Assembly (NCBI GenBank): GCA_965262895.1
Contig: OZ253568.1
Location: 3,086,479-3,150,478, forward strand
Length of the DNA: 64,000 bases
Direction of reading: 5' to 3'
From: Chloroflexota bacterium
GTDB lineage: Bacteria; Chloroflexota; UBA6077; FW602-bin22; JBCLEL01
Position 1 is the first letter of the stretch, and each line of letters starts with the position of its first letter. A program made the translations under genes and the position numbers. Below are positions 39,923-58,415 of the stretch, piece after piece. The notes under the pieces are model-generated. The model had not been told where the DNA came from, made no database searches, and worked only from the letters and a program-made list of their open reading frames with translations.

Positions 39923-40314
39923 GTTCCTCCACGTTGGCTCCCAGGGTGGTATAATGTAAAACAAATGTTCGCAACTACCGCAACGGCTCTGAGTTCGGCA
40001 TACTTACTGAATGCCGGCCTGCGCCGACTCCCACAGGGCCGGCGACGAAAAATTGGAAAATGCAAGACAAAATGATGGGTCACGCCTCCGCCGGCCTCTT
40101 TCGGCGGGAACGCAGCAATTGCAAAAAAGTCGAAATTGCAAAACAAATTGGTCGAGCAATCCAACTGCCGGCCTCTATGAGTTCACACAGGCACGCTGCA
40201 AAAAACCTAAAAATGCAAAACAACAATCCAATCAAGCCAGACACCGAACGAACCGAGGACGGCGTCAATACCAACGAATGAGACCGCATTAGGACTTACC
40301 GGGAGGACAGGAAA

Positions 40315-41346
40315 ATGCGTGCGATGCGACTATTGGGAGAGGGCCAAGCCATAGTAACCGACCGGCCGGAGCCCAGGCCGGGACCGGGGCAGGTGCTCTT
40401 GAAGATGAAAGCGGCTGCCATCTGCGGCAGCGATCTTCATCGCTACAAGCTCAAGCTGTCCGACGACGATCCGACCAAGCGGTTTGTGCCAGGCCACGAA
40501 CCTTGCGGTGATGTCGTTGAAATTGGACCAGGAGTCGATGGTTGGTCCGTCGGCGAGCGTGCCGTTGTTTACCACCGCGTTACCTGCATGCAGTGCCTCT
40601 ACTGCATTGGTGGCGAGCGAAACCTGTGCGTCAATAGGATTGGAGCCTACGGATTCGACCCCGACGGCGCCAATCAAGACTACATGATCGCCGCGCCCCA
40701 GCACCTGATAAGGTTGGCGGACGATTTCGACCACGTCGATGGAGCTCTCTTCGCTTGCCAGGTCGGAACCGCCTATCACCCGTTGAAGGCGATGAACGTC
40801 AGCGGGCGAGACCGGCTGGTCGTGTCCGGACTGGGGCCGGTCGGTCTCTTCACCCTCCTGCTCGCCAAGGCCATGGGCGCTGCGGTCGCCGGCGTCGATC
40901 CGTCACCAGAACGCCGACAACTCGCCGAGCAATTGGGCGCCGACGCGGTCCTTGATCCAACGGCTAAGCTCATCGGCGAAGCGGTGGACTCCGTATTTCC
41001 TGGCGGCGCCGATAAATTGGCCGAAACCTCCGGCGCTTCGTCCGCCCACCGCGCTATCTCCAGTCAGCTTCGTACCAATGGCCAGGCCGCGATCATCGGC
41101 TTGGCTCGTCCCGGCGCTCCATTGGATCTCGGAGACCTCAGCGAAATCCTCTTCCAGCAGATCCGTGTCTTCGGCTCGAACCTCTACCCCAATAAAGACT
41201 TTGACGAGATCGTTGACTTTGTCCGGCGCAAGAAAGTGCCGATCAAGAAAGTCATCACTCACGAAATGCCGCTCGAAGATGGCCCCGCGGCATTTCAGCT
41301 TGCCGCCGGCGCCACCGCCGGCAAGATCGTGTTCAGATTCGACTAG
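40315..41346 (+). CDS. zinc-dependent alcohol dehydrogenase (MDR family)
   Basis: GHEPCGDVVEIG zinc motif, structural-zinc Cys cluster C..C..C.......C, and GLGPVG NAD motif. Confidence 0.9.
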   Translation: MRAMRLLGEGQAIVTDRPEPRPGPGQVLLKMKAAAICGSDLHRYKLKLSDDDPTKRFVPGHEPCGDVVEIGPGVDGWSVGERAVVYHRVTCMQCLYCIGGERNLCVNRIGAYGFDPDGANQDYMIAAPQHLIRLADDFDHVDGALFACQVGTAYHPLKAMNVSGRDRLVVSGLGPVGLFTLLLAKAMGAAVAGVDPSPERRQLAEQLGADAVLDPTAKLIGEAVDSVFPGGADKLAETSGASSAHRAISSQLRTNGQAAIIGLARPGAPLDLGDLSEILFQQIRVFGSNLYPNKDFDEIVDFVRRKKVPIKKVITHEMPLEDGPAAFQLAAGATAGKIVFRFD

Positions 41347-51714: not shown

Positions 51715-51893
51715 CGTAACAGGCCTCCTAATTCGCAAAGATCCGTCTAACGTCCAACTCGGGCCGGCTCGGCAGTATCGATTCTAGCATGGCGCCGGCC
51801 CCTGCCCATTGGAGTGCACCGAGTTCCGGTTGAGACCGGATCGCATCCGCTTGAGTGTTGGGATCGATGAGATCTGGGAGTTCGCATCCTTTC

Positions 51894-52148
51894 CTATTGC
51901 TCCTGTAGCCGCATGTGGATTCGGTGTCGCAGGTCATAGGGACTCGATTCGTCCTGTGCGACTTGGGCGATCAATCGCCGCAATCTGTCGGAGAATCTGA
52001 AACGTGCGCGGCAGTTCGGGCACGCGTCGAGGTGCCGCCGGACGATTGCCGCTTCCTGGTCGGACAGTTCGCGGTCGAGGTACACGTGTAACTTTTCTTC
52101 TGCTTCCTGGCACTCTATATGATCAGGTTCGCTATGAAAGTTCGTCAC
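51894..52148 (-). CDS. zinc-finger (zf-HC2) anti-sigma factor, RsrA-like
   Basis: 84 aa. C..AEEKLHVYLDRELSDQEAAIVRRHLDACPNCRARF carries the H-x3-C-x2-C motif. Overlaps the sigma gene by 17 nt. Confidence 0.8.
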   Translation of the reverse strand: MTNFHSEPDHIECQEAEEKLHVYLDRELSDQEAAIVRRHLDACPNCRARFRFSDRLRRLIAQVAQDESSPYDLRHRIHMRLQEQ

Positions 52149-52758
52149 GACTACCCGCCTGTACTTGGATTCCGGCCGCCGAACTCGAATATTGCCATAA
52201 TTTCTTCTGCATAAGCCTGCGACCGCGCGAAAGTCGGCTCATCACGGTACCCATTGGAACGTCGGTCACGTCTGCGATTTCTCGGTAGCTAAGACCCTCG
52301 ACGTCGGACAATAGCACCGCAATGCGAAATTGCGCCGGGAGTTCCTCGATTGCGGCTTTGATGTCCAAGTCGACTAGCTCGCGGAACACTTCATCTTCGG
52401 CACTCTTGGGAAGGGGAGTCTCTGACCGGTTCGTCCGATTGTAGAGATAGAACTCCTCCAAATCTTCGATTGAAGACTCGCTTGTGGACCACTTTGCCCT
52501 GTTCATGTTGACGTGGGTATTGTGTAGGATCCGAAACAACCATGCCCGCATATTTGTTCCCAATTGAAATGTATGGGCCGAACGAAAAGCGCGAAGGTAG
52601 GTTTCTTGGACGAGATCTTCGGCGTCCTGCGCGTTGCGCGTCATACGGCGGGCGGTACGATACAGAGAGTCGACATGATTCATAGCCAGCCGTTCGAATT
52701 CGGAACTCTCTGAGGCGGACATTGCTGCTTTGTTGTCGCTAGGGTTTTTCTGGATCAT
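52132..52758 (-). CDS. ECF-type RNA polymerase sigma-70 factor
   Basis: Region 2 (..DAEDLVQETYLRAF..) and region 4 (..LSYREIADVTDVPMGTVMSRLSRGR..). Confidence 0.9.
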   Translation of the reverse strand: MIQKNPSDNKAAMSASESSEFERLAMNHVDSLYRTARRMTRNAQDAEDLVQETYLRAFRSAHTFQLGTNMRAWLFRILHNTHVNMNRAKWSTSESSIEDLEEFYLYNRTNRSETPLPKSAEDEVFRELVDLDIKAAIEELPAQFRIAVLLSDVEGLSYREIADVTDVPMGTVMSRLSRGRRLMQKKLWQYSSSAAGIQVQAGSRDELS

Positions 52759-52994
52759 GGTCTTGCCCTTTGCCTTGCGTCGAGTTGAGTCTACGCTCGC
52801 CTCTCAGGAAACTCAATCCCACATCGTATGAGGCACCACGCGCCGCACGTTCTCGGAAATGCAATTCTCATTTGGAATTGAGGTCCAACTAAGATTGTAC
52901 TATCAGTACTGAACACTCAAGGTCGATACAAGACTCTCCGTCGATTGGACAAAGTCTGTCGATTCTCCGTCCGAGGCGGCCAAACGCTGCCCCT

Positions 52995-53590
52995 ACGCCT
53001 AGCGGCGCGCTTCATTGGGCGCTTTGTTTTGCAAAAAGTACCTCTTAGAGGTGGGTCCCTCCGATCTGATAGAGGCCGGTGGTCTGAGACGATGCCAAAT
53101 CCGGCCGGCTTGCGCTCGTCAAGACAATTTGTTTTGCAAAAAGTACCTCTTAGAGGTGGGCCCCTCCGATCTGATGGAGGCCGGCGGTCTGAGACGATGC
53201 CAAATCCGGCCGGCTTGCGCTCGTCAAGACAATTTGTTTTGCAAAAAGTACCTCTTAGAGGTGGGCCCCTCCGATCTGATAGAGGCCGGTGGTCTGAGAC
53301 GATGCCAAATCCGGCCGGCTTGCGCTCGTCAGGACAATTTGTTTTGCAAAAAGTACCTCTTAGAGGTGGGTCCCTCCGATCTGATGGAGGCCGGTGGTCT
53401 GAGACGATGGCACATCTGGCCGGCTTGCGCTCGTCAAGACAATTTGTTTTGCATTCTTGCCATCGGGAAAGCGGTTCTGCGCAAGTTGATAGAGGCCGGC
53501 GGCCTGAAATGACGTCACCAATTGGCCGGCGTGCGCTTGTCTAGGCGTTTGTTTTGTGTTTTTTCGTATTGGGCCGGCCATCTTCCACGG
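52995..53590. repeat. 105-bp tandem repeat array (4 near-identical units plus about 1.5 degenerate units)
   Basis: The TTTTGCAAAA palindrome recurs with its G at 53031, 53136, 53241, 53346 and 53451 (degenerate), and at 53556 (degenerate), an exact 105-bp period. Units also contain ACCTCTTAGAGGT and CCGGCCGG palindromes. Confidence 0.9.
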
Positions 53591-53712
53591 ACCGATATCA
53601 AGCTGCGCGCCGTAGGTGTGCTGTCGTCAGAGTTGGCACGAATAAGCGAACATACGTACCATCATTATACCGCAGTAAGAGCGATATTGCGCGAACTGTT
53701 GACGGCGGCAGG

Positions 53713-54975
53713 GGTTTTTGATTCTCTAACATCCGTTGTCACCCAAAGGTTGGCGGTGGTCTTGCCTTCCCCCTCCCCTCTGGATTCCTGCCCCCGTATC
53801 GGAGTACGGGGCATGCTTTAGATCGCGGGAATCACCATGGCCTTGCGAAGGCCACAAAAGAGGATGAAAATGGGACGGCGCCGGGTGGTGCAACGCGGGC
53901 GAACTAGCGGCGCGCCCTAGGCGGGGGACAATCCCCCGCGCTACAATCCCCTCTCCCCACCCCTCTGGATTCCGGCCCCGTGTCGGGGTACGGGGCATGC
54001 TTTTGATCGCCGGAATGACGAATCGAGGGTCCGGAGTGACGAAGGGATGCCGCGAATGACCAATGAGAGGCTGCTGGAGCGGTCTATCCCGGATCGGAGT
54101 CCGGGACATGCTTTCATAGCAATCGCTCATGCCGGCTGGCGCCGGCACACCAAGGTATGAAAAGCGGGAGTTGTGGTTTGGTACAGCGAATTGGCACGGT
54201 GGATTCTGCCACGCCCCACCCCAACCCCAGCGGGGGACAAGCCCCCGCGCTACATTTTCTCATTCCGCCATCGGCCATCGGCCATCGGTCTACAATTCGG
54301 CAAGTTTCGCCGGTGGAGAGCCGGCATCGAGGTTGATTGGAGGGCACATCCCGGATCGGAGTCCGGGACATGCTTTCATAGCAATCGCTCATGCCGGCTG
54401 GCGCCGGCACACCAAGGTATGAAAAGCGGGAGTTGTGGTTTGGTACAGCGAATTGGCACGGCGGATTCTGCCACGCCCCACCCCGACTCCAGCGGGGGAC
54501 AAGCCCCCGCGCTACATTTTCTCATTCCGCCATCGGCTATCGGTCTACGATTCGGCACGTTTCGCCCATGGAGAGCCGGCATCGAGGTTGATTGGAGGGC
54601 ACATCCCGGATCGGAGTCCGGGACATGCTTTCGTGCCAATCGCTCATGCCGGCTGGCGCCGGCACACCAAGGTGTGAAAATTGGGTGCATTGGTTGGTGG
54701 GAGAGTTCTAGCGTCATTGCCACAACCCGCACCTCCCCTCTGGATTCCCGCCTTCGCGGGAATGACGAATTGAGGGGCCGGAATGACGAGATCGCGGAAT
54801 GGAGGGGTTCAACGGCGCGCTCGAAAGCGGCGTAGGCGCATTTACGTACGAATGACGACATGCGGTTTGCGGACTATCGAAATGGCCTTGGCGGGTTGAT
54901 TGTTTCGACCAACTGCTTGTCGGCCTAGGAAAATACTCTAGAAGTCCTAAACATTAAAGAATAGAAAAGCCCTGG
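53713..54975. repeat. Composite long repeat A (1263 bp; mosaic of REP units with an internal 262-bp tandem duplication)
   Basis: Collinear with 57480-58415 and in the same orientation. The internal unit starting TCCCGGATCGGAGTCCGGGACATGC recurs at 54087, 54349 and (variant) 54604. Confidence 0.85.
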
Positions 54976-57479: not shown

Positions 57480-58415
57480 GGTTTTTGATTCTCTAGCATC
57501 CGTTATCACCCAAAGGTTGGCGGTGGTCTTGCCTTCCCCCTCCCCTCTCGATTCCGGCCCCGTATCGGGGTACGGGGCATGCTTTTGATCGCCGGAATCA
57601 CCATGGACCTGAGAGGTCCGCATAAGAGGATGAAAATGGGGCGACGGGTGAGTTTTTTCCATCGTCTGGTGACCTTACCCCTCCCCACCCCTTCTGGATT
57701 CCGGCCTTCGCCGGAATGACGATTGGGGGGCCGGATTGACGAGGGGATGCCGCGAATGACCAATGAGAGGCTACTGGAGCGGTCTATCCCGGATCCTAGT
57801 CCAGGACATGCTTTCATAGCAATCGCTCATCCCGGCTGGCGCCGGCACACCAAGGTATGAAAAGCGGGAGTTGTGGTTTGGTACAGCGAATGAGCACGGC
57901 GGATTGTGCCACGCCCCACCCCGACCCCAGCGGGGGACAAGCCCCCGCGCTACATTTTCTCATTCCGCCATCGACCATCGGTCTACAATTCGGCACGTTT
58001 CGCCGGTGGAGAGCCGGCATCGAGGTTGATTGGAGGGCACATCCCGGATCGTAGTCCGGGACATGCTCTCATAGCAATCGCTCATGCCGGCTGGTGCCGG
58101 CACGCCAAGGTGTGAAAATCGGGTGCATTGGTTGGTGGGAGAGTTCTAGCGTGATTGCCACAACCCGCACCTCCCCTCTGGATTCCCGCCTTCGCGGGAA
58201 TGACGAAAGGGGGGGTGCGGGAATGACGAGATCGCGGAATGGAGGGGTTCGGCGGCGCGCTCGAAAGCGGCGTGGGCGCATTTTCGTACGAATGACGACA
58301 TGCGGTTTGCGGACTATCGAAATGGGCTTTGTAGGTTGACTTTTTCGACCAACTGCTTGTCGGCCTAGGAAAATACTCTAGAAGTCCTAAACATCAAAGA
58401 ATAGAAAAGCCCTGG
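57480..58415. repeat. Composite long repeat B (936 bp), direct repeat of 53713-54975
   Basis: Same unit order and orientation as repeat A, without the 262-bp duplication. The last ~200 bp are near-identical, ending ...CGACCAACTGCTTGTCGGCCTAGGAAAATACTCTAGAAGTCCTAAACAT.AAAGAATAGAAAAGCCCTGG. Confidence 0.85.

What the first reader, a model, noticed from the sequence alone, without database searches (positions are those of the whole stretch)
52995..53590. 105-bp tandem array with a phased perfect palindrome TTTTGCAAAA upstream of the ECF sigma/anti-sigma operon
Four near-identical units plus about 1.5 degenerate units repeat with an exact 105-bp period. That is roughly 10 helical turns, so every palindrome faces the same side of the helix. 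Each unit contains TTTTGCAAAA, ACCTCTTAGAGGT and CCGGCCGG palindromes. Units differ only at three or four positions, in a shuffled pattern (T/C, A/G, T/C), which suggests ongoing unequal exchange. The array starts about 240 bp upstream of the sigma gene start. Because 105 is a multiple of 3, two long ORFs appear on the plus strand, but they look non-protein-like. Possible roles are a phased array of operator sites for a dimeric regulator, a nucleoid-structuring or centromere-like element, or a satellite.
Basis: seen in the sequence. Interest (0 to 1): 0.6.

Follow-up and report, generated by a model that had tools for sequence, protein, structure and literature searches.

The report
Variable tandem repeat of promoter-like units
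The 105-bp array is real, but it is a copy-number-variable minisatellite made of decayed copies of a promoter region from a small dispersed repeat family in a sponge-associated Chloroflexota lineage, not a purpose-built row of palindromic operator sites.

Summary
There are four near-identical 105-bp units (53023-53442), a degenerate fifth (53443-53547) and a stub.

Three strains about 96-97% identical in the flanks carry 4+1, 3+0 and 2+1 units. Three relatives about 78-81% identical have no array: their FG-GAP gene abuts the sigma gene.

Read on the sigma-sense (-) strand, each unit holds CCGGCCTC[T/C]AT, then 35 nt, then TGCAAAACAA. The same bipartite core, with the same spacing, recurs in short tandem sets at four or more other intergenic loci: window 40012-40224 and three loci in a related MAG.

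Every set is headed by a canonical -10 (TATAAT/TACAAT, 10 nt, (A)TGTTCG). Heads and units align in one register, so units are paralogues of a promoter region whose -10 has decayed.

At the 40-kb locus, RNA contigs from three metatranscriptomes start 15-40 nt after that -10 and run through the repeats into the ADH gene. At the sigma locus, RNA evidence is weak and unstranded.

The two palindromes are peculiar to this array and are not conserved in the family. I found no Rfam hit, no conserved RNA fold and no sign of protein coding.

It is closest to MIRU/BOX-type VNTR repeats and to mobile promoters. The family is new but of a known kind. Its effect on sigma expression is inferred, not shown.

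The parts
53023..53442 (-). Four near-identical 105-bp units (starts 53023, 53128, 53233, 53338). On the - strand each reads TGCAAAACAA..spacer..CCGGCCTC[T/C]AT..35 nt.
53443..53547 (-). Degenerate fifth unit. Both conserved blocks and the 35-nt spacing are kept, but the 35-nt middle is unrelated. It is missing in L001/L002 and present in L007.
53548..53565 (-). Stub of a sixth unit (CACAAAACAAA on the - strand). On the + strand it is the T-rich tail of a terminator-like hairpin at 53533-53548.
53647..53709 (-). Head of the cassette: degenerate block 1 GCCGCCGTCAA (53699-53709), 29 nt, canonical -10 TATAAT (53664-53669), 10 nt, ATGTTCG (53647-53653). It points at the array and the sigma operon.
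   Evidence: conserved in L001 and L007
52894..52899 (-). Proximal sigma promoter candidate: -10 TACAAT (TAGAAT in relatives L003/L005, which lack the array).
   Evidence: read from sequence
52132..52758 (-). ECF-type sigma-70 family gene (Sigma70_r2/r4_2).
51894..52148 (-). zf-HC2 anti-sigma gene, overlapping the sigma stop.
39950..39971 (+). Head of the second cassette in the window: TGG TATAAT, 9 nt, ATGTTCG. RNA contigs begin at 39979-40002.
40012..40224 (+). Three family units (71-77 bp period; cores 40091-40146 and 40168-40223) in the 5' leader of the Zn-ADH gene (40315-41346).
53007..53030 (+). Terminator-like hairpin plus T-tract on the + strand at the sigma-proximal edge of the array. 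Relevant only to the + strand RNA rival.

Best explanation
The array is a minisatellite (VNTR) built from one unit of a lineage-specific intergenic repeat family, and that unit is a paralogue of a promoter region.

Shown:
- A family cassette has a 'head' followed by 2-5 tandem units. The head is block 1, 29 nt, a canonical -10 (TATAAT), 10 nt, then ATGTTCG.
- The units align with the head in the same register. In them the -10 hexamer has decayed to TAAAAA, TAGAAA or CAAGAA, and to ACTTTT in this array.
- Two blocks in the units stay nearly invariant: CCGGCCTCTAT and TGCAAAACAA, exactly 35 nt apart.
- One such cassette sits between the FG-GAP gene and the ECF sigma/anti-sigma operon in this species-level lineage only, and it points at sigma.
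- Unit number differs between strains, and the variant sites are arranged as a mosaic.
- At the sister cassette (40 kb), transcription starts at the head and the units form the 5' leader of the downstream gene.

Inferred:
- The unit was amplified and keeps changing in number (2, 3 or 4 full copies) by unequal recombination or slippage.
- At the sigma locus the head adds a distal promoter, and the array becomes a long repetitive leader or upstream region of the sigma operon.
- The two invariant blocks are contact sites for a protein (RNA polymerase or a regulator), not RNA structure.
- Changes in copy number are near-neutral or at most modulate expression.
For: - The array and its period are real.
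- Copy number: window 4+1, L001/L002 3+0 (two independent samples), L007 2+1. Flanks are 96-97% identical.
- L003-L005 (75-81% nt identity) lack the array and have the FG-GAP stop 150-230 bp from sigma.
- The bipartite core occurs 5 times in the window against 0 expected, including the degenerate unit and two copies at 40 kb.
- The same core occurs at four loci of Chloroflexota MAG OZ244845.1. nhmmer finds 2-5 tandem copies per locus.
- The head motif TAnnn[TC]-N8-12-ATGTTCG occurs only twice in 64 kb on both strands, each time at the head of an array. It also heads the arrays in L001, L007, L009 and L021, and in L006 and L011.
- Heads and units share one register: 43% identity in register against 24% out of register. 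Block 1 lies exactly 29 nt before the hexamer.
- Block 2 (AAAAATGCAAAACAA) is invariant in ADH orthologues at 89-93% aa identity, while the surrounding spacer diverges.
- RNA contigs of X26, X32 and X33 begin at 39990, 39979 and 40002, just after the 40-kb head. They run through the units into ADH, and nothing covers 39931-39978.
Against: - At the sigma locus, none of 12 metatranscriptomes covers 53541-53674, the stretch just downstream of the predicted head start site. Only 4 of 12 show low-depth contigs on the array. Activity of this head is therefore unproven.
- All RNA data are unstranded assembled contigs at 2-19x depth, and DNA carry-over cannot be excluded.
- The head at the 40-kb locus is degenerate (TAAAAC) in L021 and absent in L020.
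- The L009 cassette is probably antisense to both neighbouring genes, so co-orientation with the downstream gene is 4 of 5, not 5 of 5.
- The invariant 33 nt with two perfect palindromes hints at a constraint that this account does not explain.
Confidence: 0.55

Rival explanations
1. Phased operator array. A dimeric regulator binds the palindromes TTTTGCAAAA and/or ACCTCTTAGAGGT once per 105 bp (10 helical turns), on one face of the DNA upstream of the sigma promoter. It acts cooperatively on sigma expression.
For: - The palindromes are perfect in all full units, and the period is exactly 105 bp.
- The 33 nt carrying both palindromes are invariant in 9 units of 3 strains, while 14 variable sites lie in the remaining 72 nt (p about 0.005).
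- The array lies about 125 bp upstream of the proximal sigma -10.
Against: - Other family members keep the asymmetric TGCAAAACAA and CCGGCCTCTAT but have neither palindrome.
- Site number varies from 2 to 4 between near-identical strains, and the array is absent in the next relatives, which have the same sigma operon.
- Neither palindrome occurs elsewhere in the window.
- No regulator gene is adjacent.
Confidence: 0.12
2. A + strand non-coding RNA of about 640 nt. It is transcribed divergently from the sigma promoter region (start near 52915), contains the repeats as modules, and ends at the hairpin plus T-tract at 53533-53565.
For: - Terminator-like hairpins with T-tracts lie on the + strand at both array edges.
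- RNA contig ends fall at 52916 (X25), 52922 (X28) and 53534 (X25). X28 covers 52922-53101 but has no contig on sigma.
Against: - The + strand fold is no better than shuffles (z -1.5).
- No Rfam family matches, even at E<=10.
- The family heads and the RNA-supported 40-kb cassette run in the opposite sense.
- X26 and X27 contigs run continuously from sigma into the array, across the proposed start.
- 8 of 12 RNA runs show nothing on the array.
- Contig ends inside a repeat are also expected from assembly-graph branching alone.
Confidence: 0.1
3. A purely neutral satellite. The unit is junk DNA that expanded by slippage, the family resemblance reflects only common descent from a selfish repeat, and neither the head nor the units do anything at this locus.
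For: - Copy number varies, and the array is absent in relatives with no visible change to the operon.
- RNA signal on the array is weak or absent.
Against: - Two blocks and their 35-nt spacing are kept across paralogues whose middles are unrelated, and across orthologues whose spacers diverged.
- The first 33 nt are invariant.
- Every array is headed by a canonical -10, and at one locus this is backed by an RNA 5' boundary.
Confidence: 0.2
4. The array encodes a 35-residue-repeat protein (ORF 53015-53512, 165 aa, or ORF 52945-53544, 199 aa).
For: - Frames are open because 105 is a multiple of 3.
- The codon-usage score of 53015-53509 (0.11) is similar to that of sigma (0.12).
- A gene caller predicted the orthologous ORF (P0001) in public data.
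Against: - Among variant sites, 5 are synonymous and 9 non-synonymous, against 23% synonymous expected by chance. There is no purifying signal in any frame.
- The C-termini differ completely between strains.
- The only strong database hit is the orthologous array. Three weak hits have E>=6e-7 among 1.8 billion representatives.
- Pfam gives only fragmentary, repeat-driven matches.
- There is no Shine-Dalgarno sequence before either start.
- 47% of shuffled units give two or more open frames.
- The family sense strand is the opposite one.
Confidence: 0.02

Closest known systems
MIRU-VNTR minisatellites of Mycobacterium tuberculosis (Supply et al. 1997, as cited in PMC3635867)
   Same: Units are 40-100+ bp and sit in tandem at several dispersed intergenic loci. 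They are mostly co-oriented and co-transcribed with neighbouring genes, and copy number differs between close strains. One of the first MIRU loci lies in a regulatory (two-component) operon, as this one lies next to a sigma/anti-sigma operon.
   Different: There is no sequence relation. MIRU small ORFs overlap the stop and start codons of the flanking genes, whereas here the MQNK-type mini-ORFs have no conserved length or coupling. MIRUs are not described as having a promoter-bearing head unit.
BOX elements of Streptococcus pneumoniae (boxA-boxB(n)-boxC; PMC3049150)
   Same: A modular intergenic repeat in which an internal module is present in variable tandem number. It is transcribed as an untranslated region and creates spurious ORFs on both strands that gene callers annotate.
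   Different: BOX has terminal inverted repeats and a predicted stable RNA fold. This family shows no conserved fold and no terminal inverted repeats. BOX elements are enriched between convergent genes, which is not seen here.
Putative mobile promoters, and promoter-bearing repeats such as Correia and ERIC elements (PMC3575422)
   Same: Homologous promoter-containing upstream sequence sits in front of unrelated genes in one genome: ADH, cytochrome c, gyrA and an ECF sigma.
   Different: The operational criterion of that study (80% identity or more over 50 nt or more) is not met between loci: heads are 40-63% identical and units 50-74%. Here the promoter region is also iterated in tandem downstream of the live copy.
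Tandem sRNA gene arrays such as cyanobacterial NsiR1 (from my own knowledge, not checked here)
   Same: A tandem array of about 100-bp units in an intergenic region, each unit containing promoter-like sequence.
   Different: In NsiR1 every unit has an active promoter and a terminator and yields a discrete small RNA. Here the internal -10 hexamers are degenerate, no per-unit terminator exists, and no abundant small RNA is seen.
REP/BIME and NIME-type mosaic hairpin repeats (abundant in this same genome per earlier notes)
   Same: Intergenic, clustered and lineage-specific. The array directly adjoins such a cluster (53713-54975).
   Different: Those are short GC-rich palindromic hairpin modules. 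This unit is defined by two asymmetric sequence blocks at fixed spacing and an A-rich tract, not by a hairpin (z-scores about 0).

Membership tests
MIRU/VNTR-type dispersed intergenic minisatellite (kind, not sequence family) | Tandem units of tens to about 100 bp | tested here: met
   105 bp here; 71-77, 107-132 and 132 bp at the other loci
MIRU/VNTR-type dispersed intergenic minisatellite (kind, not sequence family) | Related units at several separate intergenic loci of one genome | tested here: met
   Two loci in the window and four in MAG OZ244845.1.
MIRU/VNTR-type dispersed intergenic minisatellite (kind, not sequence family) | Copy number differs between close strains | tested here: met
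   4+1, 3+0 and 2+1 units with 96-97% identical flanks. At the 40-kb locus one RNA contig's 16-nt loose end suggests a one-unit-shorter allele, which is weak evidence.
MIRU/VNTR-type dispersed intergenic minisatellite (kind, not sequence family) | Small ORFs in the units coupled to the stop/start codons of flanking genes (specific to MIRU) | tested here: not met
   ORFs starting at [A/T]TGCAAAAC are 6-89 aa, unconserved and uncoupled.
Putative mobile promoter (PMP) as defined in PMC3575422 | 80% identity or more over 50 nt or more upstream of unrelated genes | tested here: not met
   Between loci, heads are 40-63% identical and units 50-74% over 70 nt.
Putative mobile promoter (PMP) as defined in PMC3575422 | The sequence actually carries a promoter | tested here: inconclusive
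   A canonical -10 sits at every head. An RNA 5' boundary lies 15-40 nt after it at the 40-kb locus in 3 runs. There is none at the sigma locus, and no stranded data exist.
Any Rfam RNA family (including Chloroflexi-1) | Covariance-model match | tested here: not met
   No hit at gathering score in the window other than tRNAs and a cobalamin riboswitch. No hit at E<=10 on 52700-53800.
Structured non-coding RNA (generic) | Conserved secondary structure with covariation, or folding energy below shuffles | tested here: not met
   RNAalifold predicts 0 pairs on 9 family cores. Single units have z from -1.3 to +1.0. The whole - strand array has z -4.1, but only through pairing between identical neighbouring units.
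CRISPR array | Identical repeats separated by unique spacers of fixed length; cas genes nearby | tested here: not met
   The 35-nt 'middles' are identical in the four units. No cas genes occur among the neighbours.
Array of operator sites for a dimeric regulator | The palindromic half-sites are conserved wherever the element occurs | tested here: not met
   The palindromes are present only in this array's units and not in the other family units.
Array of operator sites for a dimeric regulator | Specific protein binding | not testable with these tools
   Needs EMSA or pull-down.

The most novel reading that the evidence does not exclude
The family is a so-far undescribed regulatory device of this Chloroflexota lineage. 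It consists of a portable promoter followed by a tunable number of leader modules. The two invariant blocks in each module (CCGGCCTCTAT and TGCAAAACAA, 35 nt apart) bind a dedicated protein on DNA or on the 5' leader RNA. Under this reading, unit number sets the expression level of whatever gene lies downstream, here an ECF sigma/anti-sigma pair. The system would behave like a contingency locus that varies between strains.
Probability: 0.15. Interest if true: 0.65.

Novelty: new member of a known kind. Interest (0 to 1): 0.35.

Why it matters
This shows what a striking 'phased palindrome' array really is: a strain-variable minisatellite from a promoter-derived repeat family. It also shows that the palindromes are incidental.

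Practical consequences:
- The ORFs across the array, already predicted as a protein in public data (P0001), should not be annotated as genes.
- The locus is a ready VNTR marker for strain typing of this sponge-associated Chloroflexota.
- The head-plus-units cassettes mark likely transcription starts in an uncultured lineage that has no promoter maps.

If unit number proves to tune expression of the ECF sigma operon, it would be an example of minisatellite-based regulatory variation outside pathogens. That remains unproven.

Tried and rejected
- **Protein coding.** Rejected on database searches, Pfam, codon score and synonymous/non-synonymous counts.
- **Known RNA family.** None found.
- **Conserved RNA structure.** None at core or unit level.
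- **sigma-54 promoter.** TTGCA could be a -12 element, but the GG lies 8 nt before the GC, not 10, so I rejected it by inspection.
- **ECF-type promoter (AAC-N16-CGT) from block 2.** The downstream CGT is not conserved among units, so I rejected it by inspection (sequences).
- **sigma-70 promoter inside ordinary units using TTCACA as -35.** The spacer is 20 nt, so I rejected it.
- **Integron attC or recombinase sites.** The core-site consensus does not fit.
- **CRISPR-like reading of the fixed 35-nt variable middle.** The middles are identical within the array and homologous between most loci.
- **Conserved leader peptide 'MQNK'.** Lengths run from 6 to 89 aa with no conservation.
- **Per-unit intrinsic terminators.** The - strand ACCTC/GAGGT hairpin plus T5 is flagged by the scan, but it is only a 5-bp stem and is absent in other family members.
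- **JGI metagenome scan with the core pattern.** It returned only 5 low-GC chance matches.
- **Other hits in the species-representative scan.** The five hits outside the Chloroflexota MAG (Chryseolinea x2, Methylobacillus, Clostridia, Dependentiae) are coding-region or otherwise unrelated chance matches.
- **A common regulon.** The downstream genes are unrelated: Zn-ADH, cytochrome c, gyrA and the sigma.

Full report
**Observation.** The array is exactly as described.
- Tandem Repeats Finder reports 53023-53453, period 105, 4.1 copies, 96% matches. The repeat finder reports five copies at 105-bp spacing.
- In register, units 1-4 match their consensus at 101-105 of 105 positions. Unit 5 (53443-53547) is degenerate, and a TTTGTTTTG stub begins a sixth.
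- The invariant 33-mer occurs four times against none expected.
- All four units carry TTTTGCAAAA and ACCTCTTAGAGGT. Unit 4 has lost CCGGCCGG.
- The ECF sigma gene (52132-52758) and the zf-HC2 anti-sigma gene (51894-52148) lie on the - strand, so the array is upstream of them.

**Relatives.**
- Translating the array ORF pulled one public 'protein', P0001. It is the orthologous array in two ENA metagenome assemblies (L001, L002) with the same gene order.
- These two carry three units and lack the degenerate unit, a clean 210-bp difference.
- A pattern scan of species-representative genomes found the orthologous locus in Chloroflexota MAG OZ244845.1 (L007), with two units plus the degenerate one.
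- Flanks are 96-97% identical among the three. Units differ at 2-12 positions in a mosaic pattern.
- Three more distant relatives (sigma 78-81% nt identity; L003-L005) have no unit at all. Their FG-GAP gene stops 150-230 bp before sigma.
- The array, and the repeat cluster beside it, is therefore a recent lineage-specific insertion whose unit number is unstable.
- Short-read contigs from several metagenomes break at the array, as expected for a near-perfect repeat.

**Not a protein, not a known or structured RNA.**
- Three of six frames are open, but 47% of shuffled 105-mers give two or more open frames.
- Variant sites show 5 synonymous against 9 non-synonymous changes in the best frame, with 23% synonymous expected.
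- C-termini differ between strains.
- An exhaustive HMMER search gave only three weak hits, all with E>=6e-7. Pfam gave only fragmentary, repeat-driven matches.
- Rfam gave nothing, even at E<=10.
- RNAalifold predicts no pairs on nine family cores. Single units fold no better than shuffles.
- The whole - strand array has z = -4.1, but only through pairing between identical neighbouring units. The + strand has z = -1.5.

**A dispersed family.**
- Read on the sigma-sense strand, every unit contains CCGGCCTC[T/C][A/T]T, then 35 nt, then TGCAAAACAA.
- This bipartite pattern has five exact matches in the window against zero expected. They include the degenerate unit, whose 35-nt middle is unrelated, and two tandem copies upstream of a Zn-ADH gene.
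- The same pattern hits three further intergenic loci in OZ244845.1 (L006, L009, L011). The five hits in unrelated taxa, and all five JGI metagenome hits, look like chance.
- An HMM of the cores finds 2-5 tandem copies at each locus, with periods of 71-135 bp, and nothing else in the window.
- Downstream genes are unrelated: ADH, cytochrome c, gyrA and the sigma.
- Four of the five cassettes point the same way as the downstream gene. L009 is probably antisense to both its neighbours.
- In ADH orthologues at 89-93% protein identity, the 15-mer AAAAATGCAAAACAA and the 35-nt spacing are unchanged while the rest of the spacer has diverged.

**The units are copies of a promoter region.**
- Each array is preceded by a canonical -10 followed at a fixed distance by (A)TGTTCG.
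- The pattern TAnnn[TC]-N8-12-ATGTTCG occurs only twice in the window, at 39950 (+) and 53669 (-). Both sit at the head of an array and point into it. It also occurs at the heads in L001, L007, L009 and L021. L006 and L011 have TATAAT-N10-ATGTTCC and TATAAT-N10-TGTTCG.
- Laid out from the hexamer, heads and units are collinear: an 11-nt block 1, 29 nt (often starting CAGTTC), the hexamer, 10 nt, then AT...
- Head-unit identity is 43% in register against 24% out of register.
- Heads keep TATAAT or TACAAT. Three of five have the extended TGn.
- Internal units have TAAAAA, TAGAAA, CAAAAA or CAAGAA at that position. The 105-bp unit has ACTTTT.
- The fixed spacing of the 'bipartite motif' is therefore the spacing of a promoter region.
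- The two palindromes are local accidents. T5+GCAAAAC stands in place of the family's A5TGCAAAAC, and CCTCTAAGAGGT stands in place of TTCTAAAAAGGT.

**RNA evidence.** All runs are unstranded Logan contigs at low depth.
- At the 40-kb cassette, contigs from X26, X32 and X33 begin at 39990, 39979 and 40002, which is 15-40 nt after the predicted start. One is a 1379-nt contig running through the units into ADH. No run covers 39931-39978. This supports an active head promoter with the units as a 5' leader.
- At the sigma locus, four of twelve metatranscriptomes have fragments on the array at depths no higher than sigma. X26 has one contig running from sigma into unit 2.
- No run covers 53541-53674, just below the predicted head start. 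Activity of this head, and the strand of the array transcripts, remain open.
- A + strand RNA bounded by the terminator-like hairpins remains a minor rival.

**What is left unexplained.**
- The 33 nt containing both palindromes are invariant in nine units of three strains, while 14 variable sites fall in the other 72 nt.
- In the family register, this segment is the pseudo -10 with its flanks and block 2. It may reflect the same constraint that keeps block 2 invariant elsewhere, or a palindrome-specific binder.
- I could not distinguish between these two possibilities.

**Comparison and verdict.**
- In behaviour the array matches MIRU-type minisatellites (intergenic, co-transcribed, strain-variable; PMC3635867) and the variable boxB modules of pneumococcal BOX elements, which also spawn spurious ORFs (PMC3049150).
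- In content it resembles putative mobile promoters (PMC3575422), although it fails that study's 80%-over-50-nt criterion.
- It is a new family of a known kind.
- The organism is an uncultured Chloroflexota (record title). Its sequence is held by sponge metatranscriptomes.

Noticed in passing
window 39931-40002: RNA contigs from three metatranscriptomes start at 39979-40002, right after TGGTATAAT (39947-39955), and none covers 39931-39978. This is a likely transcription start for the Zn-ADH mRNA, with a leader of about 350 nt.
   Followed up: yes
L009 7201-7420 (MAG OZ244845.1): A family cassette (head TGGTACAAT plus two units) that appears antisense to both neighbouring genes. It is followed by a hairpin plus T-run (GGGCGTCAGCGCAGCCTTTTC), so it may be a stand-alone transcript of about 200 nt.
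   Followed up: partly
window 52726-52806: The first ~10 codons of the sigma ORF (ATG at 52758) and the ~50 nt just upstream of it are far more divergent between strains than the rest of the gene or the upstream intergenic region. L001 calls the gene 196 aa against 208 aa here, so the true start may lie further in.
   Followed up: no
window 53713-54975 and 57480-58415: Composite 255-262-bp repeats made of short GC-rich hairpin modules flank the FG-GAP/UnbV gene. Contig depth over 53750-54000 reaches thousands in every metagenome, so these modules are extremely abundant across the community.
   Followed up: partly
L003 3853-4001; L005 3771-4001: In relatives lacking the repeats, the FG-GAP/UnbV gene ends only 150-230 bp before the sigma gene on the same strand. 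That suggests an ancestral FG-GAP-sigma-antisigma arrangement, which the insertions have split.
   Followed up: partly
window 51868-51893: RNA contigs of X32 and X33 replace 24 nt here with 150 other letters. This is a strain-level indel between the anti-sigma gene and the glyoxalase gene. L003 has an extra 106-aa ORF at this position.
   Followed up: no
window 40210 (run X33): One RNA contig's loose end (AATTACAAAAAAGTCG) joins the unit-1 upstream sequence to unit-2 block 2. This hints at an allele with one unit fewer at the 40-kb locus.
   Followed up: no
P0001 (ENA ERZ26167216, ERZ25766727): Public gene calls annotate the orthologous array as a 111-aa protein. This is a spurious ORF created by the 105-bp (35-codon) period.
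   Followed up: yes
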